DNA of 63,618 nucleotides, the filler included, from Collodictyon triciliatum (taxonomy: Eukaryota): the NCBI GenBank assembly GCA_043381765.1. It is 12 parts of 12 records of this genome, joined end to end, with 100 filler letters (N's around TTAATTAATTAA, not from the genome) between each part and the next. Parts side by side here need not be neighbours in the genome. Positions count along the whole stretch, not along the records: positions 14,938 to 19,811 come from JBHJMP010005686.1; 11 more parts are not named here. One strand, 5' to 3'. The position numbers and the translations under genes are program-made. Positions 4,883 to 53,784 of this stretch are shown here, piece by piece (positions within the stretch are counted from its first letter, which is position 1; the number at the start of each line of letters is the position of its first letter). The notes under the pieces are model-generated. The model saw only the letters and a program-made list of their open reading frames with translations. It searched no databases and had not been told where the DNA came from.

Positions 4883-4982
4883 NNNNNNNNNNNNNNNNNN
4901 NNNNNNNNNNNNNNNNNNNNNNNNNNTTAATTAATTAANNNNNNNNNNNNNNNNNNNNNNNNNNNNNNNNNNNNNNNNNNNN
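4883..4982. other. artificial contig linker N44-TTAATTAATTAA-N44 (also at 9861, 14838, 19812, 24788, 29764, 34740, 43740, 48713, 53685, 58652)
   Basis: Identical 100-nt spacer with six-frame stops occurs 11 times. Confidence 0.98.
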
Positions 4983-9860: not shown

Positions 9861-10094
9861 NNNNNNNNNNNNNNNNNNNNNNNNNNNNNNNNNNNNNNNN
9901 NNNNTTAATTAATTAANNNNNNNNNNNNNNNNNNNNNNNNNNNNNNNNNNNNNNNNNNNNAAAGAGAAGAAAGAGAAGAAAGAGAAGAAAGAGAAGAAAG
10001 AGAAGAAAGAGAAGAAAGAGAAGAAAGAGAAGAAAGAGAAGAAAGAGAAGAAAGAGAAGAAAGTAGAGTCCCTCTGAATGACACACAAAAATAG

Positions 10095-14649: not shown

Positions 14650-15706
14650 TCTCAAAAGCCAGAAAAAAAAAGAGGAAAAAAAAGAGGAAAAAAAAGAGGA
14701 AAAAAAGAGGAAAAAAAAAAGAGGAAAAAAAAAGAGGAAAAAAAAAGAGGAAAAAAAAGAGGAAAAAAAAGAGGAAAAAAAAGAGGAAAAAAAAGAGGAA
14801 AAAAAAGAGGAAAAAAAAGAGGAAAAAAAAGAGGAAANNNNNNNNNNNNNNNNNNNNNNNNNNNNNNNNNNNNNNNNNNNNTTAATTAATTAANNNNNNN
14901 NNNNNNNNNNNNNNNNNNNNNNNNNNNNNNNNNNNNNAAAAGAAAAGAAAAGAAAAGAAAAGAAAAGAAAAGAAAAGAAAAGAAAAGAAAAGAAAAGAAA
15001 AGAAAAGAAAAGAAAAGAAAAGAAAAGAAAAGAAAGAAAGAAGAAAAGAAAGAAAGAGTGAACATCTATCAGCAGTGCTTAGAATAAGTAGGAAACCAAG
15101 GAAAAGGAGAACAGGTCAAAGGAATATCGGACAGATCGCGCCTCGACACCAGACACCCTGCCATCGAAAGACAAGTGGCATCCAGGCGTCAATGCCGATG
15201 GTCTTTTCTTCTATGCGCAACTTGCGGCGTTGTGGATATCGGCCGTGTATCCGCAGTCTTTCCGGCAGAAGTGCAGAGGTGGGATCCAAAAGGTGGAATG
15301 AAATGAAACAGGACTAAAATAATGCTAAATAGAAGAGAGCCCGATGACTCCAGCGCTGTCAACACCCAACGAGAGACCGACGATCACAACACATCAAAGA
15401 GCATCGAAACTGCACACATTCATCGCACTAGGGTTGCAGTGCTGCAGAAACCCGCCTCTTCCGCGTAACCACACCAAAAAAGGTATGAATACCGGGGAAG
15501 CACCCAGAATTAGACATCCGTGCGGCCACACGCTTTATTTTTGTCTCGTTTTTCTTTCGTTTCTTTTTCTTTTTCTTTTTTTTTCTTCTTATTTTTCTGG
15601 TGATTGACAGCGATTGGAGAGACAAAAGGAGCGCTTCGAAAGGAAGTCATATTTACGGGTGTTACCCGCGTTTGTTTGGTCCGAGCAGATTTTGACAGGT
15701 GTAAGC

Positions 15707-17614
15707 TTACAACAAACCCATGGCCAGCGCGGATATGTGGCATTGAAGGAGGACATACGACTGGTCAGCAAGAAGGCGCCGATGCGCTTGGACAATCCAG
15801 GGCTGCATGCGCTCTTGAGTTAGGCGAGGAAGCTTCTCGAATTCCTGGACAGCTGCATGTAAGTTGTTTTCATGGAAAAGGAGGTACTCGGCAGATTGCA
15901 ATCGCTGGTGTGGGTGGAGTTTGCTGTCTGGTGTTGCCTCGACGATCATCTTGGCGTTGTCAATCGAAGGAATAATCAGAAAGTAGTTGGCAACGTGCGA
16001 AAACAAATGGGCGAACACACCACCCGATCCGTAGCCCAGCAGCATATTGTAAGTCCTGGTATGTTCACTGTCAACTGGGTTTGATGGGGAGCTTGACGGG
16101 GCTGGAGCATTTGGGACATCCGGGTGGATGGCGTAGCGGTATAAATCTTCCCGCATTTCTTTGTATGTAACCTGAAGAGATTTCAGATTCATAACACCGT
16201 CAGCCAAAGGCCTGAGCGATTCCACAGCGACGTCTACCAAGGTATCCTGTTCCTTTGATACAACAGACTTTGATATATCCAACATGACATCCAATTCGTG
16301 GTGGAATGGCGTAACATGGGGGTTGTGCAACGCGCGGTGAATGGAAAATAGAGCAACCCACAAGGAATGAACGCGAGTGATGTCTTGCGCAAATGAAATG
16401 CGCTGGTCAAGGAGGTGTCCTAATTGTTGCACGCGGTCTTCGATTCCTTTCTCTTTTTCCTGACGATTTGACGCCTCGGATGCGAATCGCTCCTGCACGT
16501 ACGAAATCTCTTGTTCAAGTCTGTTTTGCCAAACACGGGATAAGTTAGTTTCTTGCCATTGAAGCTTCTCTTGCACATAGTTTTTCCATTTCTCGTCCCG
16601 AGACTTTATGATCTTTTTCGCCTCTTCGTATTGCTCATCCATTTTTCCTTTGTACTCCGCCTCGATTCGAGCGATCTCTACTGAAAGACGATTGGAAAGC
16701 TCAGCCTCTACACGTTGGCGGAACTCACCATCTTCAACATCCGTCTTACTTTCTTTTTCAGCATCAAGTTCAACACTTTGTTGGATATCCTCAACAACAA
16801 TTTCGCCAGTAGCAGTCGCAGGAATGGCCTCGTCACCCAAGAGACTAATTCCTAACGCAAGCTCCATATCAGACGGGTTTTCCATGGGTGGATTTGTTTC
16901 TGCAGGTTGGATGACTGTTGAGGTTGATGGGGTGTAATCTTCCTTCTGGGTATCACTATGCTGATTTGCAACATCCTCAGCAACTGCAACATTAGACTCG
17001 ACGGGCTGAATTGTATTCTCTCTCTGTTCTTCCTGAACTTCTGGAACTGTTTCAATCACGGGTAATTCAGCAGAGTCAACTTGAACATATGATTCTAGCG
17101 AGACAGAGCCTGCTTCCCCACTCGAGTCACTGGTTGAGGACGGCTGCAGCTGGTTCTCTGTTTCTGTAACTACATCATTCTTTTCGTCATCAACACCGGG
17201 GCGAGCATCACTCACTGCAGGAACGTCAGAGTCCAGAAGTCTGCTCTGGGACTCTTTTGGCGGAGAAAGAGGCTCTGCTTGCTTGTGGATAATGCCCTGG
17301 AAGAGAAGCACTTTGTCCTGCAGCCAATCCACATATGCGGGCGGGACAGAGTTGTTCACTGTGGCCGAGAAAGCCGGGATATGTGCGTAGGCCGCAGCTC
17401 CGCCCAGCGGGACAACAATCCCCACGAAAGCAAGCGAGGCGATAAGTCGACCGAAGCCGCGGTTTGTTGGTTTCGGTGTTTCTGGCGGCGTTGCACCAGT
17501 CGTCAATAAGCGCAGAGTGAGTGGAGCAGGCTTTGCTCGGGCGATTTGTGGGAAGGCCGCCGCTGAGGCCGAGTGGGAAACTCGAGCCAAAGATGTTCGC
17601 AAGGCTGCGAGCAT
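15707..17614 (-). CDS. MIC60: MICOS subunit Mic60 / mitofilin, single exon
   Basis: Arg/Ser/Ala-rich mitochondrial presequence, one TM helix, acidic region, long coiled coil, and a C-terminal mitofilin domain (AEYLL...NLHAAVQEFEKL...WIVQAHRRLLADQ). Confidence 0.85.
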   Translation of the reverse strand: MLAALRTSLARVSHSASAAAFPQIARAKPAPLTLRLLTTGATPPETPKPTNRGFGRLIASLAFVGIVVPLGGAAAYAHIPAFSATVNNSVPPAYVDWLQDKVLLFQGIIHKQAEPLSPPKESQSRLLDSDVPAVSDARPGVDDEKNDVVTETENQLQPSSTSDSSGEAGSVSLESYVQVDSAELPVIETVPEVQEEQRENTIQPVESNVAVAEDVANQHSDTQKEDYTPSTSTVIQPAETNPPMENPSDMELALGISLLGDEAIPATATGEIVVEDIQQSVELDAEKESKTDVEDGEFRQRVEAELSNRLSVEIARIEAEYKGKMDEQYEEAKKIIKSRDEKWKNYVQEKLQWQETNLSRVWQNRLEQEISYVQERFASEASNRQEKEKGIEDRVQQLGHLLDQRISFAQDITRVHSLWVALFSIHRALHNPHVTPFHHELDVMLDISKSVVSKEQDTLVDVAVESLRPLADGVMNLKSLQVTYKEMREDLYRYAIHPDVPNAPAPSSSPSNPVDSEHTRTYNMLLGYGSGGVFAHLFSHVANYFLIIPSIDNAKMIVEATPDSKLHPHQRLQSAEYLLFHENNLHAAVQEFEKLPRLTQERMQPWIVQAHRRLLADQSYVLLQCHISALAMGLL

Positions 17615-17882
17615 CCTGCAAGGGAATGGTTGGGTCAAAACAGTTGGCCTCGTCTTCTACTGCTCATCTACCTTTGTATCTTTTCTTTTGTGTGCGTACA
17701 TATATTGTTTGTGTTTCTTTTATTTCGATATTTCCTCTTCCTCCTTCAATTGCCGCTTTTTTTCTTTCTTCTCGGGCTCAAAGAAGGCGCTGATCACGCG
17801 ATGCGGCGCTTTGTTGTGATTGCACCAGCACAGACGCACAGAAAGGAACCGATTCTGGAATTTACATTGATTATCAGCAATT

Positions 17883-18050
17883 CTGCCAATGCGCTTCTAA
17901 ATCACTCAATCACTGATATTTATTGCTTGACAAGAAGGGTTATGGCAGTCTCTCGATTGGTAAACCTGGTTCGCCAGTATCCAAGGTCTCACCACTTTTT
18001 TCACAAGTGTCGTGTAGTGGTGAAGGCTGCCAGGAAAGACCCGACAGCCT
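17883..18050 (-). ncRNA. putative Fanzor omega-RNA (guide RNA scaffold)
   Basis: Four consecutive stem-loops at the Fanzor 3' end; G-U wobble pairs form only on the minus (Fanzor-sense) strand. Confidence 0.55.
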
Positions 18051-18059
18051 ATTGTTTTT

Positions 18060-19811
18060 TAGAGGAAGTGTATGCATTCTTTGAAGGATAAAAAGAGCTT
18101 TGTTGAGTATATTATTAGCGCTGTTAAACTCCCTTATCATGAATACACTTTGTTTGCTTTCTTAGTGATTGCATTCTTTACATATGAGACATCTATACAA
18201 TTTTTTCGAGTTTCCTTTCAGTATTATATATTCCAGTTCTTTTTCGCAGTTAAAACACATCTCGAGGTTCTAATTTTATTTACGCTATCTGTTTCAAAAT
18301 TTTTGGATAGTATTTTTCGTTATCCTCTTCCGATTGTTGCCACAAAATGTTTTATCTGACATTTTCTGCTCCAGTCCCCATACGCCAGTACAACATCCTT
18401 GCCAAATGTCTTTTCGATTCGGTCCATAAACAATGGTTCACTTTTTTTCGTATGAACATACTGTCTCCATCTCGTCTTTCGAAAAGTTCGTTGTTCATAA
18501 AATCTGGAAAATTCTACTGGTATCTTGATTTTATAGATACATATTCTCGAAATTGTTCATAATCGACCGTGCATGAATTATGTTTGCTAAGTTCTGTCTC
18601 TAAATCGACTAAAGATACTCTTGATGTCTCAAACTGCTGATTCTCTTCAAAAGTCATGTGACAAAAAAAAAACATCACTTTGTAAACCTGTTGCCATGCA
18701 TATCCCTGAACAATTGTACTCTGCTTTTCTTTTTTTCTCGCGCAAGAGTATTTTGTGATTTTTAAGAGATTTGCTATCATGTCTTCTTTGGTGTGCCGTG
18801 TAACGTAATTTCTCATCTGTCCCATCCACCATGCAAACAAAATTAAACTTGCCTGCGTCCACTCCAACTATTTTTTTTTTGTCGCTAATAAAGATATCTG
18901 CTCTTCGGAAAGTTCATCCATATACATATTCTTGAGTTTTTTTTTATTATATTTGAATTTTGCATTTGAAATACGTTTCTTTTCAAACAATAATGACACC
19001 GCCAAGCCGTCTGTTTGTATCATGTATTTAAAACTGTAGTCTCTTTGATGAAAACCCTCTTCTTCATTTCAAAGAACTCATCCCACAGTGTCTCTTTGCA
19101 TCCTGATATATTCTTCAGTAATGATGTTTTTCTAGTTAATACTAACAGACAATCAAACATGCAGTATCTAGAGTAATATGACATGACATATTGTTAGTTC
19201 TTATAGAGATGGGTTGAAACAGTTTGGCTCCAATGTCCTCAAAAATGAGACTCATGTAAATCAGACATGGTATGTACTTCTTCGGATTGACTTTGACATC
19301 ATATTTGATACCATTTACAACATCGCTGGGAATGATATGATGCAAATGCGTTGTAGCCCATTCTTTATATTGTTCCGGTATGTGGAGTTTCTTGAAGATG
19401 GCTTTTTTTTTTCGTGACTCTGGCTTTTTAATAGCTCCCGTAATATTCTCATCTTTAGGAACTGTTTGATTTATAAAGCACAGGAACCTCTTAACAAAAT
19501 GTTCCTTAATATTTTTATGATAAGCTGCTAGCATTTGCTTCGCCAAGCACGGTAATACATGAGACAGTCTAACGACCGGAATGCGTTCTTCTCGGGACAA
19601 AAGGAATCGAAAATCATTGAGATAAAAAGTCATCATGCCATCTCTCATTTCTGGATTTTTAAACGTGTGGGTCTACCTTGTGAAACTACTCCGACTGTCT
19701 TTAAAGCATACAAAAAAAAACATTTCATCGGTTGTTGGGAGTTGTTGTGATTTCAATATGTAACATCTTGCAAACAGATAAGTGTCGGTAACCAAATTAT
19801 GACACAATAAA
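18060..19811 (-). pseudogene. Fanzor (TnpB-derived RuvC nuclease, Fanzor1-like), with frameshifts and stops; 5' end cut by the contig edge
   Basis: KYDVKVNP, KLFQPISIRTN..HITLDT, IQTDGLAVSLLF, IVGVDAGK (RuvC-I), LRYTAHQRR, AYGDWS, NKIRTS, ICKEC, IREFNSANNI (RuvC-III); no introns, AT-rich. Confidence 0.85.
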
Positions 19812-20009
19812 NNNNNNNNNNNNNNNNNNNNNNNNNNNNNNNNNNNNNNNNNNNNTTAATTAATTAANNNNNNNNNNNNNNNNNNNNNNNNNNNNNNNNN
19901 NNNNNNNNNNNAAAAAAAAAAAGGAAAAGGAAAAGAAAAAGAAAAAGAAAAAGAAAAAGAAAAAGAAAAAGAAAAAGAAAAAGAAAAAGAAAAAGAAAAA
20001 GAAAAAGAA

Positions 20010-23000: not shown

Positions 23001-23655
23001 ATATGACTGATATATCTTAGTTTCAGACCATCGTAAGTGAAGATAACATTTTCTTGACTTTTCTGTCCTCCAACAACAACAGAAACGATATTATTTTTCC
23101 CTGCCCCTTTTGGAGTCATAATTTCCAATGCTGTCAGACTCAACCATTTAACTTGTGGGCTTATATGATCGCCGATGTACGCTGCCACATCAGCGCCTTT
23201 CGGACCAAAATTAATTCCAGTGATTGTGATGAGTTGTTTTCCGCTTGCCGAGCCAGACGACGCAGAGATCTGCTGAATGCTAGGAGCTATGATAGTACGA
23301 GGTTAGATTCATGCTTGATAAGATCGGATGGTGTGAATACCTGGATCAGTAATACATCTAAATCACATTACTGCGCATGTATTGGCAATAATTGGAGAGT
23401 TGATTACAACTTACGGTCATATGAGTAGTACAGGGGATTCGTACTGGCTGTTCCATCAACTGTTACAATCACTGTCAGGTCCTTCCCAACACCAGGTGGA
23501 GTGGAGCAAGTGATTTTTGTGCTGGATACAAGGACGACATTCTCGCAATAATATATTCCAATACTGACACGAATGACGGAATCTTTTGTTCCAAAATTCG
23601 TCCCTTCGATGAGTATGGAAGCCTTCCCGCTTGTCGGCGCAGCTCCTTGGGCTAG
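20010..23655 (-). CDS. IPT/TIG-repeat cell-surface protein (internal exons, partial at both ends)
   Basis: Repeated P.I.SI.P..GPT.GG..ITI.G.NFG...ITC.TPPGVG....V.V.V.GQ.S...FSYD modules, roughly one per exon. Confidence 0.88.
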
Positions 23656-23850
23656 TTGCATAATATGTTCAAAAAAATGCAAGTTTAGCTCTCTTGGCCA
23701 CACTAGAAAGCGAATCCTTCTTTTAGAAAAGTTTGTATTCCTTAAGGTATAAAATATAAAATAAAAAGCAAAAGACAGGAAACATAAGAAACGAAAACAA
23801 ATTGTCACACCCGCGAAGCAAAGGAATCCACACACTAGATGATGATGCTG

Positions 23851-23981
<131 letters not shown>

Positions 23982-24565
23982 GGGGAATAGTCAAGTAATA
24001 AGTTAGGGAGGAGAGGATGATAAAAGGGAACTCGAAGGATTGGATAAGTGTTCTTGCGGAAGAGGAAACTAACCTTTAACCAGATGATCGAGAACCGGCG
24101 ACGGACGTTGAAACTCAAAGTCTTTCAAGGAAGTCTCGTGGAAAAAGAACGGCAGAAGCTCATAACGGAAGTGGAAAAGGGCCAATAACACGAAGCCAAC
24201 AGCAGCAACGACGTACTTTCGGTGCAGCTCGGGCATCAAACCGTTGATCGATTGGAATCCTTACTGAACTTTGTTAAAACAACCTTGCAATAATGTGAAG
24301 AATGTCTTTGAACTTTCTTTTGTATCTGTATGTGTTTGCTCATAGTCTTTTTTTGTTTTTTGTTTTTTTTTTTGTTTTGTTGTTATTTTTTTGTTTTTTT
24401 CCTCCATTCGATTCAAAGCATTTTGTTATTTTGTTATTTTGTGTCTCGACAGCACATAGCGCCAAAGCATCACATCGCCAAATAGGGAGTATTGAAGGAT
24501 GTGTCCCAACACGAAAAGAAACTCCTGGGTTCTGAATTGGCAATATAATGACGCGCTAAAAACGT

Positions 24566-24787: not shown

Positions 24788-24887
24788 NNNNNNNNNNNNN
24801 NNNNNNNNNNNNNNNNNNNNNNNNNNNNNNNTTAATTAATTAANNNNNNNNNNNNNNNNNNNNNNNNNNNNNNNNNNNNNNNNNNNN

Positions 24888-29544: not shown

Positions 29545-30152
29545 GTAAGTGCCGGCACTGTGACCAATCTCATATGGTATTCAATCCATACAATTATTAT
29601 TTGCAAGGTTTTCTACTTTCATGGGTTTAAAACACTTTATTATATCTCTACCAACAAAGCCATTTCATAATACATACATACATACATACATACATACATA
29701 CATACATACATACATACATACATACATACATACATACATACATACATACATACATACATACATNNNNNNNNNNNNNNNNNNNNNNNNNNNNNNNNNNNNN
29801 NNNNNNNTTAATTAATTAANNNNNNNNNNNNNNNNNNNNNNNNNNNNNNNNNNNNNNNNNNNNTCATTCATTTTCATTCATTTTCATTCATTTTCATTCA
29901 TTTTCATTCATTTTCATTCATTTTCATTCATTTTCATTCATTTTCATTCATTTTCATTCATTTTCATTCATTTTCATTCATTTTCATTTATTTTTTCACA
30001 CTTTTATTCGTATTTATTTATTTTTACACACTTTTATTCACTTTTATTCGTTTTTATTCATTTTTATACATTATTATTCGTTTTTATTCACTTTCATTCA
30101 TTTTTACTCATTTTTACTCATTTTTACTCATTTTCTGACCATCCCTTTCAAG

Positions 30153-34739: not shown

Positions 34740-35047
34740 NNNNNNNNNNNNNNNNNNNNNNNNNNNNNNNNNNNNNNNNNNNNTTAATTAATTAANNNNN
34801 NNNNNNNNNNNNNNNNNNNNNNNNNNNNNNNNNNNNNNNTTTTCTTTTTCTTTTTCTTTTTCTTTTTCTTTTTCTTTTTCTTTTTCTTTTTCTTTTTCTT
34901 TTTCTTTTTCTTTTTCTTTTTCTTTTTCTTTTTCTTTTTTCTTTTTCTTCCTCTTTCCTTCTTTTTTTCTATCCATGTTCGTGCTTTTTGTTTTTGTCCA
35001 GATGAAGCTGGTAAGAAACTTATTTCGCATAGAAAGCTGCAGCACTA

Positions 35048-38661: not shown

Positions 38662-40372
38662 NNNNNNNNNNNNNNNNNNNNNNNNNNNNNNNNNNNNNNN
38701 NNNNNNNNNNNNNNNNNNNNNNNNNNNNNNNNNNNNNNNNNNNNNNNNNNNNNNNNNNNNNNNNNNNNNNNNNNNNNNNNNNNNNNNNNNNNNNNNNNNN
38801 NNNNNNNNNNNNNNNNNNNNNNNNNNNNNNNNNNNNNNNNNNNNNNNNNNNNNNNNNNNNNNNNNNNNNNNNNNNNNNNNNNNNNNNNNNNNNNNNNNNN
38901 NNNNNNNNNNNNNNNNNNNNNNNNNNNNNNNNNNNNNNNNNNNNNNNNNNNNNNNNNNNNNNNNNNNNNNNNNNNNNNNNNNNNNNNNNNNNNNNNNNNN
39001 NNNNNNNNNNNNNNNNNNNNNNNNNNNNNNNNNNNNNNNNNNNNNNNNNNNNNNNNNNNNNNNNNNNNNNNNNNNNNNNNNNNNNNNNNNNNNNNNNNNN
39101 NNNNNNNNNNNNNNNNNNNNNNNNNNNNNNNNGCTAGTATGGTAGACCGCAGTCACGCATATGAAGTATATGCTCTACTTTATTCAATATCACACTCCAA
39201 AATACCAGCACCGCTCTCGCAGCAGACATCTTTTCCCTTCATTCGATTCAAAGAATCAAGCATGGTTCAATGTCATAAGACTTACATATCCAGCTAATCA
39301 AGGGGTTTGTATACGGATATGATAGGCAGTGGACTTGTCAAAAGACCAGAAGCCGGACGATAAATCAGAAATGACTCGCATCATGAGCATGGGTGGTCAT
39401 GTCGAAAGGTCATACGACGAAAATGGCAAACCAGATGGACCTTATCGTGTTTGTATTTTTCATTACATTGGCCAGATGTGCTGTGATGTTATTGAAGAAA
39501 CTAGTCAATTTTTTTTTCATATTTTAGAGTTTGCACATTAAAAGAGAATATAAATCTCTGTCAACCAAACAGGTTTATGTCTCTGGTGAAGGATACCCAG
39601 GGCTTGCGATAGCTCGTTCTGTTGGCGACCGAGTAGGGAAAACGTGTGGAGTTATATGCGACCCAGTCATCACAGAACACAACGTCGAGCCCGAGCGTGA
39701 TAAATTTCTCGTTCTTGCTAGCGACGGAGTGTGGGAGTTTTTGTCCAGTCAAAGAGTAAGATTGTTTTAACCCTGTTCATTTTCAAAAAAAAATAAAATA
39801 AAATGGTGCGATTGTTATCTATTTTCTTGAGTCATACATCAGTCATATTCATTGCTGGGCCGTCTATTATCTTGTATTCACTCTATTCTATCTCGTGTAT
39901 GCGTTATAGATACTCCTTTTGTAACTTACAGGGCATTTGTAGCATCACTGACCTTCTGTATTTATCAACATAAGGTTGTCACTATCGTTGGTGGGATGAC
40001 AAGCGCAGAAAGTTCTTGTCGTCAACTGGTCTTTGATGCCAAACAGGAATGGGACAAGTGAGACCTTTCATCCAATAAATTATTTCCCTTTAAAAAAAAA
40101 TGATAATAACAGGTGCACACAGCAAAATTTTCAAGTAACACCTCTTTTTCTTAAAAAAAAAAAAAATGAAAAGTGTAAACATATGATAAATGAAATTACT
40201 GGCTGACGGCCGATTTCTTTTGCTTCGCGCACAATTACACTTAATTTACTCATATGGATAAGAATCAAGTTCACTCTTATTGCGGTTCTGTAGGCGTGCT
40301 CTGGAAGAAGGAGGCTATCGCGATGATGTGACATCTCTTGTTGTATATCTGAACCAAATGAACGCTACATAA
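35048..40372 (+). CDS. GRAM + cyclic-nucleotide-binding-like + PP2C phosphatase fusion protein (multi-exon, spans a sequence gap)
   Basis: MGNRHS start; GRAM (EALVACWPC...GRLFISQRYIAYY); CNB (EEGKSYDNLYQVLQG...GDMFGEMSFLDGG.ASASVVA); PP2C (NQD, FFGVFDGHG, SGTTA, LAIARSVGD, LVLASDGVWE, DDVT). Confidence 0.85.
35486..35546 (-). mobile_element. 25-bp poly(A)-tailed retro-insert with 18-bp target-site duplication
   Basis: AAATCACTGAGCTGAATT at 35486-35503 and 35529-35546 flanks TTTTTTTCCTTTATTCGATTCAAAG. Confidence 0.75.
37737..37785 (+). mobile_element. 21-bp retro-insert with 14-bp TSD (1 mismatch)
   Basis: AAACACTATTTTCA and AAACACTATATTCA flank TGAATCGAATAAAGGGGCAAA. Confidence 0.6.
38662..39132. 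other. scaffold gap (471 N, no linker) inside the PP2C gene
   Basis: N-run without TTAATTAATTAA; PP2C exons are collinear on both sides. Confidence 0.9.
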
Positions 40373-43639: not shown

Positions 43640-43839
43640 GTGAGACCTGACCTCATATCATACATTATTTTAGAGGGTTTATTCATGATTGCTTTCATAT
43701 ATGTATCTTTTTTTTTTTTTTTTTTGTTAGCCTTGATAANNNNNNNNNNNNNNNNNNNNNNNNNNNNNNNNNNNNNNNNNNNNTTAATTAATTAANNNNN
43801 NNNNNNNNNNNNNNNNNNNNNNNNNNNNNNNNNNNNNNN

Positions 43840-48494: not shown

Positions 48495-49315
48495 ACTAGA
48501 ATAAACATGCTATTACTTAGCAATTTGTAGGCGCTATTATTTCAAAAAGAAGCTTGATGATATACATGTAAAATTGACCTTTTCTATTTGAAGGCGACCT
48601 TGGCTTTCTGCCTCATTTATCTTGCTCTCATAATATTCCTCGGTCTTCTTGGCCAAGTCAGTCATCTATATGGTTTTTGAACAAACAAAACAAAACAAAA
48701 AAAAAAGCAAAANNNNNNNNNNNNNNNNNNNNNNNNNNNNNNNNNNNNNNNNNNNNTTAATTAATTAANNNNNNNNNNNNNNNNNNNNNNNNNNNNNNNN
48801 NNNNNNNNNNNNATGGACTTTAATCAGCGGTCGTATTATTTGCGATTGTCATAAACACAGTAGAAAACATGGTGACGGCGCCCAGTGATTAATTACTCAT
48901 CTAATGTAAATTCTTCCTAACCCATCTTTATTTAATGGTTTCTTTGTTGTTCATATATAGCTCGTTTCATCATCGCATCCATCTCCTATTAGTTTTATTT
49001 TCTCATTCAATATTGTGCCTATTTGCTGTGGGCTCATCACCCGATTCTCGATTGTTTTAAGTATAGTATCCTACTCTCGCCAATTTCGATTAAATGGTAG
49101 AAAAAAAAACCCCCCAAGAAAACAACCTTGCGCTCGTTTCGAATCTGACAGAAAACGAAGCAAGAATACTGAGTGAGGTCGAGAATGAAAAAAACAAGAC
49201 GAAGGAATGAGGTTGCTTTGCAGTACTGTTTGGCAGCTGCTGGCACAACCAGCGGAGGTTTCGGTCAGACAAACTCACTTCGAAAAGCAGGGAGAGCTTA
49301 TCACGCGAAGTCGCT

Positions 49316-51820
49316 ATGGCCACCGCAACAAATACGACGACGATCGGCCGTCAGCAGAGCCACAACCAAAGCCTTCGCCCGTCAAATACAGCGTCTGCGT
49401 CTCGCTTCTCGTCCCTGCGCTATGTGGACGACAATCCAGCATACCTCGTGTTAAAACCTGATCTCCGCACGGTTATTTCTCCGTTTCGTCGAGTCCTGAT
49501 ACCTGAAACACCAGTCTCTGAGTTTTTCCTGGAGCTGATCGAAGTGCATCAAGACCAAGTATTTGTCTTTTCTTTTTCTTTTTCTTTTTCTTTTTCTTTT
49601 TCTTTTTCTTTTTCTTTTTCTTTTTTTTCTTTTCTTTTCTTTTCTTTTCTTTTCTTTTCTTTTCTTTTCTTTTCTTTTCTTTTCTTTTCTTCTCTTTTCT
49701 TCTCTTTTCTTCTCTTTTCTTCTCTTTTCATCTTGGTATATTCATATGCGCATGGCCAATTCCTCCTCTCTTAATTTCATTATTCACACTGTTTATTTTG
49801 TGTTTCTTTTTTTAACAACATACTATCTATTCAACTTATTGACCAAGAGTGAATATATCTATTGTACTCCAAATGTATGGTTGGTTTTACTTCAGGCATC
49901 GCATAGCGCCACTTTGTCTCTCCCCTATCTCCCTATTTATATCTCTTTATTTTATTCCCTGTGGATCTGTTCAAAAAACAGCTTACCAAATTAACAAATT
50001 ATCACTAGTATTGGATTTAATAATTAGAATTAGTAAAGAAAAAAAACAACAGCACAAAGGAAATCTCTTTTCACCTCACCCTCCCTTCCAGCTTGCCATT
50101 GTTGACGCCTCTACAGGACACAAAGTCACATATGCCCAACTCGCAGGCGGAATTCGACGGGTCGCTGCATCGCTGTTTTGCCGCTATCTGCGCCATGGCG
50201 ATGTTGTAGCCATCCTGGCCCCAAACATCCCGGAATATGCCGTAGTCTTCCACGCAACATCCCTCTACGGTGGCGTCGTCACCACGCTGAATCCTGAATG
50301 GTCTGATAGCGAATTACTTGCTCAACTCAGTGCACTCCAAGTTCGCCACATATTCACAGACCCTGCTCAAGCCGCCCGCGTCTCGGCCTTGTGGACTAAG
50401 CTGACGCAGCTGGACTCTTCCACGCCTGCACGAGACCCATCCAACATATTTGTCTTTGGGAAACCCGAGAGCGGCTCCAACCACACGGCTTTTGCGGACC
50501 TGCTCCATCCCGACTCTCTATTCCCCGACCAAAACATCAACCCTCATGAGCAAGTCGCTGCAGTCTTTTACATGCGTGATGCTGCGACTGGCGAGCTGGT
50601 CGGCCTTGAATTTACTCACTACAATCTCACGGCAGCGCTTGTCCAGGGTCTGGCCTATGATGATATGGTTCCCCAAGACCGCGTTCTCGCCTGCGCTCCC
50701 TTCCACACTCCCTATGGCCTTTGCTTCCAGATGAATGTGGCTCTGGCTCGCGGAGTCAATGTGGTTGTCCACTCGAGCCCTGCCCCAATCATCGATCTAC
50801 TTGCCGAGTACACTGTCTCTCGCCTCTGCACTGATAATGCAAGGACACTATCAACTCTAAATGACTCGGTCCAGTCTGCAAAGGCCATCATCGCATCGCT
50901 CCAGTGTATTGTGTATGGAGGCCCCGATGCGGCAGCCATCTCGTCGGATTCGTCTCTGATTTCGGTTGTTCAGGCTCTGGAACAAGGTCTCTCGTTACCT
51001 GTTCGCATTCTGTACGGTATTCATGAATCTATTGCGACTCATGGTGTTTTGAAGGGCAGCTCCATCGACTCGGTTGCTGGGTCTGGGGCTCCACCAGGCT
51101 CTGTCGGTCAGCTTTTGCCAAACGTCGAGTGTGTAGTGATTGAGCCGCGCTCTGGCGTATTACTGCCAGCTAATTATGTTGGTGGTAAGTATTGTAATAT
51201 AAAGCTACAAGTGTCAAGACATTCTTGAAGATATATCTACACAGTGAACTTTGTGTCTGACAAGAATATTAGCTTAATCCATGATGTTAACATTTGTATC
51301 TCAGCTATTTAAGTGTACAGAATGTATATAGTAATGATTAATTATCTACATTTTCTACGCCACATTCATTATAGAAATACACATCCGAGCTCCTCAATGC
51401 TTTTCTGGTTCATTTATTTTGCTCATCCTTCATACTCTTTCGCATCTTTTTTTTTGTACGACTGATTTTGAATATATATGTATGTATGCGATTTGTTTTG
51501 TAGTATTACTCTCTTTTTCATTTGCGTATTAATTCATTCTTTTTTTTCTCATAGGCTATGTCGACCACACTCGAAATGCTTCGATGAATGCTGATGGGTG
51601 GATTCGTACTGGTTTCATCGGTATGTCTCTCAAATATTCTTGTCGTAGTTAGGATGAATACAATCGTAATACCGCTCCAAGATTTCGGATGTTATCATCA
51701 CTTCTTCCCTAATTCAAGAGCTCGAGAAAAATTGTAATCTTTTACTTAAAGTGTTATTCTTCTGCTCGATATATAGGTCATTACGACCGGAAGGGTTACT
51801 TTTACGTTCGAAAGGCTTAG
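49316..51820 (+). CDS. 4-coumarate-CoA ligase/luciferase-like adenylate-forming family protein with degenerate catalytic motifs
   Basis: AIVDASTG..VTY, GDVVAILAPNIPEYAVVF, PFHTPYG, GSVGQLLPNVEC, GWIRTG; four GT-AG introns; stop at 51820. Confidence 0.8.
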
Positions 51821-53684: not shown

Positions 53685-53784
53685 NNNNNNNNNNNNNNNN
53701 NNNNNNNNNNNNNNNNNNNNNNNNNNNNTTAATTAATTAANNNNNNNNNNNNNNNNNNNNNNNNNNNNNNNNNNNNNNNNNNNN

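What the first reader, a model, noticed from the sequence alone, without database searches (positions are those of the whole stretch)
18060..19811. Decayed Fanzor (eukaryotic RNA-guided TnpB-family nuclease) of apparent giant-virus type, upstream of MIC60
Seen: joining minus-strand frames gives ...HFVKRFLCFINQT...KYDVKVNP...KLFQPISIRTN..HITLDT...IQTDGLAVSLLF...IVGVDAGK...LRYTAHQRR...ETELSKHNS.TVDYEQF...FRKTRWRQYVHTKKSE...AYGDWS...NKIRTS...CKEC...IREFNSANNI. The RuvC-I Asp is intact (18857-18859). The expected RuvC-II Glu reads Lys (AAA, one change from GAA) and the RuvC-III Asp reads Glu. There are in-frame stops (e.g. TAA at 18320-18322) and frameshifts. The region is intronless and AT-rich in an otherwise intron-dense genome. 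Known: this motif order is that of Fanzor1 proteins carried by eukaryotic transposons and large DNA viruses. Inference: from memory it most resembles Nucleocytoviricota-encoded Fanzors, suggesting virus-mediated transfer into this protist, and intact programmable copies may exist elsewhere in the genome.
Basis: partly seen in the sequence, partly recalled or inferred. Interest (0 to 1): 0.8.

Follow-up and report, generated by a model that had tools for sequence, protein, structure and literature searches.

The report
Dead Fanzor1 nuclease gene copy
This stretch is a broken, non-working copy of a jumping-gene nuclease (Fanzor1) that belongs to a many-copy family in its host and whose nearest traceable relatives sit in giant-virus genomes; it is a real but ordinary relic.

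Summary
Window 19810-18007 (minus strand) is collinear with residues 44-643 of an intact 648-aa metagenomic protein: 589 codons aligned, 61% identical. It is interrupted by 9 frameshifts and 3 in-frame stops. A profile of 12 intact relatives hits only solved Fanzor1 structures (E 1.8e-55 to 1.6e-42).

The RuvC-I Asp is kept. The Fanzor-specific relocated RuvC-II Glu reads Lys, and the RuvC-III Asp reads Glu. All 30 intact controls read D/E/D.

The 5' end is not a biological truncation. The window is a chain of unrelated ~4.9-kb contigs joined by artificial linkers, and the gene runs off its contig.

Public read contigs show that this is one decayed member of a many-copy, diverged family. Other copies carry Leu at the stop, Asp at RuvC-III and no indel at several of the window's frameshift sites.

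In trees the copy groups with two unlabelled proteins. That group is sister (SH-aLRT 98) to a clade on giant-virus contigs, where Fanzor1 rides in TIR-bounded Tc1/mariner-IS630-type transposons.

"Giant-virus type" is therefore supported as kinship. The direction of transfer is not shown. This is a new member of a known kind, of low interest.

The parts
18007..19810 (-). Body of the Fanzor1 pseudogene, corresponding to residues 44-643 of intact relative P0001. It has 9 frameshifts and 3 in-frame stops. The first ~43 codons run off the contig.
   Evidence: tblastn E 9e-135; frame-aware alignment with 361 of 589 codons identical; 11 collinear HMM hits
18857..18859 (-). RuvC-I catalytic Asp codon (GAC), kept. 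The adjacent invariant Pro of the D-P-G signature reads Ala (18854-18856).
18275..18277 (-). Position of the relocated RuvC-II Glu (E555 of P0001, invariant in 12 of 12 relatives); here it reads AAA = Lys.
   Evidence: all 30 intact controls have Glu
18129..18131 (-). RuvC-III position of the 'RD' motif; here it reads GAG = Glu instead of Asp. Nine contigs of run X2 read GAC = Asp.
18320..18322 (-). In-frame TAA at the invariant Leu540 position. All covering contigs of runs X1, X2 and X7 read TTA = Leu.
18162..18164 (-). Second in-frame TAA (Ser593 position of P0001), between the zinc ribbon and RuvC-III.
18165..18262 (-). T-S motif and the four Cys codons of the C4 zinc ribbon. The codons are kept, but a frameshift at 18252/3 lies between the first two Cys.
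19812..19911 (.). Artificial linker (N44 + TTAATTAATTAA + N44) that marks the end of the 4,874-bp contig 14938-19811. Sequence beyond it is an unrelated contig.
17618..17907 (.). Spacer between the repeat family's last covered bin and the neighbour's transcript end. Bins 17632-17907 have no cover in any of the 4 runs laid. The right end of the element lies somewhere near 17908-18007 and is not defined.
15707..17656 (-). Neighbouring 649-codon open frame (ATG at 17612-17614), GC 0.50, MIC60-like by language-model features only. It is covered by a single contig in each of runs X1 and X2 and serves as a single-copy control.

Best explanation
Window 18007-19810 (minus strand) is a pseudogene. It is one decayed copy of a Fanzor1 gene, the eukaryotic and viral TnpB-type RNA-guided DNA endonuclease carried by DNA transposons.

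This copy cannot make a working enzyme. Its frame is broken 9 times, it has 3 in-frame stops, and two of the three RuvC catalytic residues are replaced. It therefore does nothing itself, apart from being raw DNA about 350 bp upstream of a cellular gene.

Shown: it belongs to a many-copy, diverged repeat family in its host and close relatives, and other copies of that family keep the residues that this copy has lost.

Inferred: when intact, the protein would bind a guide RNA transcribed from the 3' end of its own transposon and cut matching DNA next to a short motif. This is what has been shown for other Fanzor1 proteins.

Kinship: this lineage is sister to Fanzor1 genes that sit in TIR-bounded Tc1/mariner-IS630-type transposons inside giant-virus genomes. 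Host and giant viruses have therefore exchanged this transposon family at some point. I put virus-to-host as the direction at about 50%.
For: Homology
- tblastn of intact P0001 against the window gives E 9e-135.
- 361 of 589 aligned codons are identical.
- The HMM of relatives hits 11 collinear pieces and nothing else in the window.
- The profile of 12 relatives hits PDB Fanzor1 chains only: 9cf0 1.8e-55, 8gkh 4.8e-53, 9cer 1.6e-42.
- Window pieces on their own hit only Fanzor1 chains: GtFz1 0.0029 and SpuFz1 0.049.

Decay
- 9 frameshifts and 3 stops.
- The catalytic positions read D/K/E, against D/E/D in all 30 intact controls that were not used to define the invariant columns.
- Only 76 of 97 invariant columns are kept at 59% identity to P0001. 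Relatives at 48-49% identity keep 88-91.

Many copies
- Runs X1, X2 and X7 lay 283, 295 and 97 contigs in all on the 4.1-kb stretch.
- The neighbouring ORF takes one long contig each in X1 and X2, at depth 22 and 18.
- The Fanzor part takes the many short contigs, mostly 90-95% alike, with summed depth 67-305.

Other copies lack the lesions
- Of the 29 displayed sites where they differ from the window, 13 move to the P0001 residue. These include stop to Leu, Glu to Asp at RuvC-III, and 5 invariant columns.
- 1 moves away, 9 are synonymous and 6 are other changes.
- Indel variants sit at 5 of the window's frameshift sites (table 4).

Viral kinship
- 249 of 365 candidate stretches in IMG/VR encode a relative. 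80 were kept, and 79 of those 80 hold an open frame of 575-640 aa.
- The nearest atlas clusters are 92-100% Viruses, mostly Nucleocytoviricota.
- In the tree, window+P0001+P0002 has support 100, joins P0081 at 94, and is sister to P0048/L082/L083/L084 at SH-aLRT 98. FastTree gives 99.
- L082-L085 are 80-88% identical to P0048 and lie on 57-254-kb viral contigs.
- Both records that could be searched (those of L084 and L051) carry the NCLDV capsid domain above the cut-off.

Mechanism of the family (papers)
- RNA-guided cleavage by Fanzor1: Saito 2023, PMC10432273, passages.
- The relocated Glu is essential; E467A abolishes cleavage: Jiang 2023, PMC10530073, section 11 passages.
Against: - Three of the 9 frameshifts lie in homopolymers of 9-10 bases, in a very fragmented draft assembly. 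Some indels could be assembly errors.
- The Pfam copy at hand finds nothing in any single piece.
- No guide-RNA counterpart was found. The covariance model from viral relatives has no hit at 17880-18070; its best hit in the window is E 0.19, elsewhere.
- No viral-type TIR was found, and the element ends are undefined.
- The runs laid are contigs of other samples with coded organism names. They are 98-99% identical in the neighbouring gene, so 'other copies' may be in sister strains or species, not in this assembly.
- Only 40 of 328 difference rows were displayed, and they are the best-supported ones. The 13:1 count is therefore a selected sample, and the Lys codon 18275-18277 was not among the rows shown.
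- The two closest proteins (P0001, P0002) and P0081 have no known origin. The transfer direction is open.
Confidence: 0.9

Rival explanations
1. The gene is really intact, and the breaks are sequencing or assembly errors in a poor draft.
For: - Frameshifts at 19723 (T9), 18878/9 (A10) and 18661 (T10) sit in long homopolymers.
- The assembly consists of ~4.9-kb contigs that mostly end in microsatellites.
- Some contigs of other runs lack one base at 18664 and 18881.
Against: - Three in-frame stops and both catalytic replacements are base substitutions, not indels.
- 21 of 97 invariant columns are changed.
- 6 of the 9 frameshifts are not in long homopolymers.
- The adjacent 649-codon frame on the same contig is open and matches RNA-type contigs at 98-99%.
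Confidence: 0.03
2. The stretch is part of an integrated giant-virus genome fragment, or viral contamination, and not a transposon copy in host DNA.
For: - The nearest traceable relatives are all on giant-virus contigs.
- Bao & Jurka 2013 describe Fanzor elements inside integrated virus fragments in a brown alga (PMC3627910, passages).
Against: - It lies about 350 bp from a GC-rich, MIC60-like cellular-type gene on the same contig.
- It is one of very many diverged copies, unlike the uninterrupted ORFs found at 79 of 80 viral loci.
- No other viral-type gene is in the 4.9-kb contig. The contig is too short to exclude a larger insert on the far side.
Confidence: 0.05
3. On origin only: the family is an old resident of this host lineage or its relatives, and giant viruses picked it up from such hosts. 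This is host-to-virus transfer, or transfer by the transposon itself without a viral vector.
For: - The window clade has its own deep branch (0.6 substitutions per site) and only 38-49% identity to viral proteins.
- Direct scans of IMG/VR with P0001 and with P0081 found no viral relative.
- The family is high-copy and diverged in the host, which suggests long residence.
- Tc1/mariner-type elements move horizontally without viruses (general knowledge).
Against: - Viral sequences occur in three of the four subclades around it.
- Atlas clusters are 92-100% viral.
- No member of the wider clade could be traced to a cell.
- Most members are unlabelled, so this is weak evidence.
Confidence: 0.4

Closest known systems
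Fanzor1 RNA-guided endonucleases with solved structures: Spizellomyces punctatus SpuFz1 (8GKH, 9CEU-9CEZ), Parasitella parasitica Fz1 (9CF0-9CF3), Guillardia theta GtFz1 (9CER-9CET)
   Same: The domain order matches over the full length. The family profile aligns positions 5-608 to SpuFz1. Shared features are the RuvC-I Asp, Gly in place of the canonical RuvC-II Glu in the G-D/N-W-S motif, the downstream Glu before T-S, the C4 zinc ribbon and the R-D motif.
   Different: The relationship is distant and visible only at profile level. Single window pieces reach only E 0.003-0.05. The window copy is broken and lacks the Glu and the last Asp.
Giant-virus Fanzor1 elements of Tc1/mariner type (PGv-1 of Phaeocystis globosa virus, PUl-1/PUl-4; Bao & Jurka 2013, PMC3627910); Pfam 38.1 DUF8286 (PF26935)
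   Same: - The relatives found by search carry PF26935 (named).
- The sister viral clade (L082, L084) sits in a 3.3-kb element with 32-33-nt TIRs and a DDE_3 + HTH transposase.
- Another viral family is a 2.4-kb transposase-less element with the same kind of TIR.
- This matches the paper's description of Fanzor1 with, or without, a Mariner transposase between shared TIRs.
   Different: - I could not compare with PGv-1 itself, because no sequence was at hand. The link is by description only.
- The window copy is in cellular-type DNA.
- It is 38-49% identical to the viral proteins.
- No TIR, transposase or guide RNA was recognised.
Prokaryotic TnpB with relocated RuvC-II Glu ('TnpB2' of Jiang et al. 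2023; IS607 TnpBs of Yoon et al. 2023 preprint)
   Same: The catalytic arrangement is the same: canonical Glu lost, alternative Glu downstream. The zinc ribbon is also shared (PF07282 hit in relatives P0013 at 1.9e-7 and P0011 at 8.5e-4).
   Different: The Fanzor1-type N-terminal half is much longer. The context is eukaryotic or viral. There is no TnpA.

Membership tests
Fanzor1 | Full-length sequence homology to established Fanzor1 proteins | tested here: met
   The profile of 12 relatives hits only Fanzor1 chains in PDB (E 1.8e-55 to 1.6e-42). The window is collinear with that profile in 11 pieces. Window pieces alone hit only Fanzor1 chains.
Fanzor1 | RuvC-I Asp (D-P-G signature) | tested here: met
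   GAC at 18857-18859. The Pro next to it reads Ala.
Fanzor1 | Canonical RuvC-II Glu replaced by Gly/Pro, plus a conserved alternative Glu downstream (Jiang 2023; 'G500 and E536' of Bao & Jurka 2013) | tested here: not met
   Gly is kept (A-Y-G-D-W-S). The alternative Glu reads Lys (AAA, 18275-18277). It is Glu in 12 of 12 aligned relatives and in 30 of 30 controls.
Fanzor1 | [TS][TS]-x-x-C4 zinc finger | tested here: inconclusive
   T-S and all four Cys codons are present. A frameshift at 18252/3 splits the first Cys pair, and a TAA follows the second pair.
Fanzor1 | RuvC-III 'RD' motif | tested here: not met
   It reads R-E (GAG, 18129-18131). It is Asp in 30 of 30 controls and in 9 contigs of run X2.
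Fanzor1 | Open reading frame of about 600-650 aa | tested here: not met
   9 frameshifts and 3 stops. The N-terminal ~43 codons are off the contig.
Fanzor1 | Guide RNA (omegaRNA / reRNA) encoded at the 3' end and reaching the transposon's right end | tested here: inconclusive
   Viral relatives have covarying stems there: 43 double-change cells against 8.8 +/- 2.5 in shuffles, 0 of 500. The model built from them finds nothing at 17880-18070. That model is dominated by one viral family only 38-42% identical in protein.
Fanzor1 | Carried inside a DNA transposon (TIR/TSD, transposase in cis or trans) | not testable with these tools
   The left end is beyond the contig end. No whole genome is held. 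The viral TIR motif has 0 matches at up to 3 mismatches. No TIR was found in 17650-19811.
Giant-virus-borne Fanzor1 (DUF8286 clade) | Phylogenetic placement with virus-encoded members | tested here: met
   It is sister to the P0048/L082-L084 clade, SH-aLRT 98 and FastTree 99. The root is not inferred, and most rows are unlabelled.
Giant-virus-borne Fanzor1 (DUF8286 clade) | Located in a giant-virus genome | tested here: not met
   It is on a contig with a GC-rich, MIC60-like cellular-type ORF and is one of many diverged copies.

The most novel reading that the evidence does not exclude
The host, a freshwater eukaryote judging by near-identical pieces in lake and freshwater runs, carries a large Fanzor1 family. 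The family may be transcribed and still active. Its other copies keep the catalytic residues, and its sister group rides in Tc1/mariner-type transposons of uncultured giant viruses. If so, the family records host-virus transposon traffic that could tie a clade of giant-virus MAGs to a host lineage. It would also offer untested compact RNA-guided nucleases.
Probability: 0.2. Interest if true: 0.5.

Novelty: new member of a known kind. Interest (0 to 1): 0.22.

Why it matters
By itself it matters little. Dead transposon genes are common, Fanzor1 in protists and giant viruses has been in print since 2013, and so has the idea that viruses spread it.

It has modest value as a pointer. The host and its relatives hold many copies of this family, some with the catalytic residues in place, and the sister clade lies in giant-virus transposons with clear ends and a structured 3' RNA. 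Anyone mining Fanzor nucleases or tracing giant-virus hosts could follow that lead.

The contig-chain structure of the window also matters for every other finding made on it. Neighbours across a linker are not neighbours in the genome.

Tried and rejected
- Pfam on the eight separate frame pieces found nothing relevant. The family's Pfam model (PF26935, Pfam 38.1) is not in the copy at hand, and intact P0001 also scored nothing.
- The own-genome search failed because no genome is held.
- Close-relative scans of IMG/VR with the 176-aa window piece, with P0001 and with P0081 found no relative.
- The single JGI metagenome scan with P0001 gave only a 21% relative, L081. I therefore could not get DNA of the closest intact relative and could make no dN/dS estimate.
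- The covariance model R1 was built from 49 of the 65 distinct viral 3' ends. I left out 16 by hand: two (L005, L023) before the first alignment, and 14 close to rows already included before the second. It has 37 hits with E <= 10 in the window. The best is 0.19 at 40128-40212, and none lies at the expected place. The RNAalifold structure used for it held only 10 pairs, so it was mostly a sequence model.
- By-eye similarity between window 17880-18010 and the viral 3' end or TIR was not confirmed by the motif search or by MAFFT, so I dropped it.
- I looked for a DDE_3 transposase or the viral small ORF in the window by local tblastn. Nothing scored below E 1.
- Earlier notes of this scan hold nothing for this genome or this sequence.
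- Bins 17632-17907 had no cover in the four runs. I treat this only as a rough guide to where the repeat ends.
- I did not try to name the host organism.
Full report
**What is there**

The longest piece is 176 aa (19142-19672). Searched against the large protein collection, it found 13 longer proteins (E 1.4e-56 to 2.8e-7). The best is an intact 648-aa protein, P0001, at 58% identity.

tblastn of P0001 on the window gives E 9e-135. A frame-aware protein-to-DNA alignment that I scripted covers P0001 residues 44-643 and window 19810-18007. It aligns 589 codons, 361 of them identical (61.3%). It contains:
- 9 frameshifts, near 19723, 19655/6, 19149/50, 19048/9, 18878/9, 18661, 18515/6, 18252/3 and 18064/5;
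- 3 in-frame stops: TAA 18320-18322, TAA 18162-18164 and TAG 18049-18051.

No insert that could be an intron is needed.

A local HMM of 12 relatives, run against all 2,471 six-frame pieces of the window, hits 11 collinear minus-strand pieces (E 7.8e-52 to 0.12). The next best hit anywhere else has E 0.21.

**The window is a chain of contigs**

The string N44-TTAATTAATTAA-N44 occurs 11 times. It cuts the window into pieces of 4882, 4878, 4877, 4874, 4876, 4876, 4876, 8900, 4873, 4872, 4867 and 4867 bases. These lengths fall almost steadily, and most pieces end in microsatellites.

The pieces are therefore separate contigs of a fragmented assembly, sorted by length and joined with a six-frame stop linker. 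They are not neighbours in the genome.

The finding's contig is 14938-19811. The gene runs off its end at 19811, so the missing ~43 N-terminal codons are an assembly limit, not a deletion. What lies beyond 19911 is unrelated. Unlike most contig ends here, this one is not a microsatellite, which fits an assembly break inside a repeat (inference).

**Which family**

Pfam, in the copy at hand, sees nothing in the single pieces, nor in intact P0001. The collection's precomputed label for all 13 hits is PF26935, which the atlas output names DUF8286 (Pfam 38.1).

An alignment of 12 intact relatives (A1), used as a profile against all PDB sequences, hits three sequences only, all Fanzor1:
- Parasitella parasitica Fz1, 1.8e-55;
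- Spizellomyces punctatus Fz1, 4.8e-53, aligned over profile positions 5-608;
- Guillardia theta Fz1, 1.6e-42.

Window pieces on their own also hit Fanzor1 chains. All three hits of the 176-aa piece are Fanzor1 chains: GtFz1 0.0029, PpFz1 0.01 and SpuFz1 0.026. The 78-aa piece hits SpuFz1 at 0.049, and its only other hit is an unrelated protein at E 0.84.

The same profile finds 6,560 representatives at E <= 0.001 and 1,318 at E <= 1e-30 among 1.84 billion. It is a large family.

**Catalytic residues**

Jiang et al. 2023 (PMC10530073; section 6 and passages of section 11 read) report three things about Fanzors:
- they have lost the canonical RuvC-II Glu, which is replaced by Pro or Gly;
- they use a conserved Glu about 45 residues downstream;
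- mutating that Glu (E467A in the mimivirus enzyme) abolishes cleavage.

Bao & Jurka 2013 (PMC3627910, passages) define the family by D-x(125-275)-[TS][TS]-x-x-C4 finger-x(5-50)-RD. They note an extra conserved Gly and Glu in Fanzor1.

In A1, D364, G521 and E555 are invariant and D604 is at least 90% conserved. The window reads as follows:

| Position | Window reading |
|---|---|
| RuvC-I Asp | GAC, 18857-18859 |
| Conserved Gly | kept |
| Relocated Glu | Lys (AAA, 18275-18277) |
| RD motif | Glu (GAG, 18129-18131) |

As a control I aligned 30 intact proteins that were not in A1 (23 representatives and 7 viral ORFs). All 30 read D/E/D.

The window keeps 76 of the 97 invariant columns although it is 59% identical to P0001. 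Relatives that are only 48-49% identical (P0048, L082, L083) keep 88-91. Conserved positions have therefore been lost out of proportion, as expected for a copy no longer under selection.

**One decayed copy of a many-copy family**

No whole genome is held, so I used public runs. Fourteen listed runs hold part of 15700-19811. The best two (X1, X2; coded organisms A and B) hold 0.38 of the sampled words.

Four runs were laid at 88% likeness or more. They behave differently on the two parts of the stretch:
- **Neighbouring ORF (15700-17617).** X1 covers it with one contig of 2,129 nt (32 differences). X2 covers it with one contig of 2,061 nt (23 differences). Depths are 22 and 18.
- **Fanzor part (17908-19811).** It takes almost all of the 283 (X1), 295 (X2) and 97 (X7, a freshwater metagenome) contigs laid. 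Most are 120-280 nt long and 90-95% alike. Summed depth is 67-305.

That is the picture of a diverged, high-copy repeat.

At the window's lesions the other copies read differently:
- 18321 reads A in every covering contig (102/102, 205/205 and 82.5/82.5 by depth). This makes the stop codon TTA = Leu, the invariant residue.
- 18129 reads G in all 9 covering contigs of X2, which gives GAC = Asp.
- Indel variants sit at 18516, 18664, 18881, 19053 and 19149. These are five of the window's frameshift sites.

I worked out the coding effect of all 29 displayed differences in the Fanzor part:

| Effect relative to P0001 | Sites |
|---|---|
| Move to the P0001 residue (5 in invariant columns) | 13 |
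| Move away | 1 |
| Synonymous | 9 |
| Other | 6 |

There are four caveats:
- These are contigs, not reads.
- Only 40 of 328 difference rows were displayed, and they are the best-supported ones.
- The Lys codon was not among them.
- The organisms are coded and differ from the window by 1-2% in the neighbouring gene. The copies may therefore belong to sister strains or species.

**Kinship with giant-virus genes**

A scan of IMG/VR with A1 found 365 candidate stretches. Of these, 249 encode a relative and the best 80 were kept. Many lie on contigs named GVMAG, and they are 37-40% identical to P0001. In 79 of the 80 the frame is open over 575-640 aa.

The atlas clusters nearest to P0001 are 92-100% Viruses, mostly Nucleocytoviricota (a lead, not an alignment).

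I built two trees.
- **FastTree, 133 rows.** The rows were the window read-through with X at each break, P0001-P0013, 11 of the 79 viral ORFs, and the 108 representatives of 560-720 aa among the 150 listed.
- **IQ-TREE quick, LG+C20, 45 rows picked from the clades of the first tree.**

Both trees agree. Window+P0001+P0002 form a clade (100). P0081 joins it (94 in the second tree). The group is sister to P0048 (99 and 98).

P0048 itself has relatives at 80-88% identity on viral contigs of 57-254 kb (L082-L085). P0013 has one at 70% (L087).

Of five viral records asked for, two were held (those of L084 and L051). Both carry the NCLDV major capsid domain above Pfam's cut-off.

The copy's nearest traceable relatives are therefore giant-virus genes, and viral members lie in three of the four surrounding subclades.

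Several points remain open:
- P0001, P0002 and P0081 have no known source.
- Direct scans with P0001 and P0081 found nothing viral.
- The trees are unrooted, and most rows are unlabelled.

Kinship is supported. The direction of transfer is not.

**Anatomy of the viral relatives, and what the window lacks**

- **Right end.** Among 78 viral loci, similarity stops about 85-100 nt after the stop codon.
- **Left side.** In 34 of 58 loci with 4 kb of upstream DNA, similarity extends 387-471 nt upstream. That stretch holds a 96-99-aa ORF with no Pfam match.
- **Short element.** L051 shows 33-nt terminal inverted repeats bounding a 2.4-kb transposase-less element.
- **Sister clade.** L082 and L084 form a 3.3-kb element with 32-33-nt TIRs of the same kind. 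It carries a divergently oriented DDE_3 + HTH transposase (PF13358, 1.5e-15 and 1.3e-13). That is the Tc1/mariner-IS630 type that Bao & Jurka describe for PGv-1 and PUl-1.
- **3' RNA.** The last part of the viral ORF plus its tail shows stems with compensatory changes. I chose 12 pairs by eye. 43 cells have changes on both sides, against 8.8 +/- 2.5 in shuffles (0 of 500) and 2-4 when the partner is slid. This is as expected for a guide-RNA scaffold.

The window shows none of this. The covariance model from 49 viral 3' ends has no hit near 17880-18070. The viral TIR motif has no match at up to 3 mismatches. No inverted repeat bounds the locus. No DDE_3 relative is in the window.

Given 38-49% protein identity, these negatives say little.

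**Surroundings**

About 350 bp downstream on the same strand lies a 649-codon open frame (15707-17656, GC 0.50 against 0.35 for the pseudogene). Pfam and PDB searches give nothing for it. The atlas places it with MIC60/Mitofilin clusters in 30 of 30 hits at 0.93.

'MIC60' is therefore a reasonable lead, not a tested result. Whatever it is, it behaves as a single-copy, expressed-looking cellular gene.

**Verdict**

This is a dead Fanzor1 gene copy. It belongs to a many-copy transposon family of the host and is related to giant-virus-borne Fanzor1 transposons.

Fanzor1 in protists and giant viruses has been in print since 2013, and so has the proposal that viruses spread it. RNA-guided cleavage by Fanzor1 and the relocated Glu have been in print since 2023.

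It is a new member of a known kind and of low interest. The one lead worth following is the apparently better-preserved sister copies.

Noticed in passing
window 4883-4982, 9861-9960, 14838-14937, 19812-19911, 24788-24887, 29764-29863, 34740-34839, 43740-43839, 48713-48812, 53685-53784, 58652-58751: Eleven identical artificial linkers (N44 + TTAATTAATTAA + N44) split the window into contigs of 4882 down to 4867 bases, in nearly falling order of length. Most contigs end in microsatellites. Pieces on either side of a linker are not genomic neighbours, which affects any finding that spans one.
   Followed up: yes
window 17612-17617 and the 5' ends of laid contigs: Contigs of three runs (X1, X2 and RNA library X3) covering the MIC60-like ORF all stop at 17617, 3 nt before the ATG. 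The X1 and X2 contigs carry about 22-23 further letters that do not lie on the window. This could be a spliced leader or an upstream 5' exon.
   Followed up: no
L051:7549-9946; L007:7598-7891; L060:7642-7932: A giant-virus Fanzor1 family forms a 2.4-kb element with 33-nt TIRs. It holds a conserved 96-99-aa ORF with no Pfam match just upstream of the nuclease gene. Relatives of that small ORF occur in 49 of the 81 loci held at the time.
   Followed up: partly
L082:4637-7952; L084:4630-7952: A 3.3-kb giant-virus transposon with 32-33-nt TIRs carries a DDE_3 + HTH transposase and Fanzor1 on opposite strands. Its TIR shares the core G-C-G-T-T-T-T-A-A-A-T-G...G-G-T-G-T-A with the transposase-less family, so the short elements could be moved by this transposase.
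   Followed up: partly
alignment A5 (49 viral 3' ends), columns 43-49/69-78 and 95-118/143-147: Stems in the 3' end of the viral Fanzor1 ORF and its tail show compensatory changes. One pair reads CG 22, UA 13 and AU 9. This is consistent with a guide-RNA scaffold that overlaps the coding end.
   Followed up: yes
window 57399-58166 (-), 49843-51228 (+), 23404-24075 (-): Other contigs in the window hold a thymidylate synthase exon (Pfam 1.8e-54, preceded by 85 in-frame residues), an AMP-binding enzyme ORF (1.8e-33) and a TIG-domain ORF (1.1e-14).
   Followed up: no
window 15700-17617, in runs X3 and X7: Pieces of the MIC60-like gene with 0-6 differences in 151-282 nt occur in a freshwater metatranscriptome, and one 162-nt piece with no difference occurs in a freshwater metagenome. 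The organism or a very close relative lives in fresh water.
   Followed up: partly
window 38662-39132: A run of 471 N lies inside the one 8,900-base piece. It is a scaffold gap of a different kind from the linkers.
   Followed up: no
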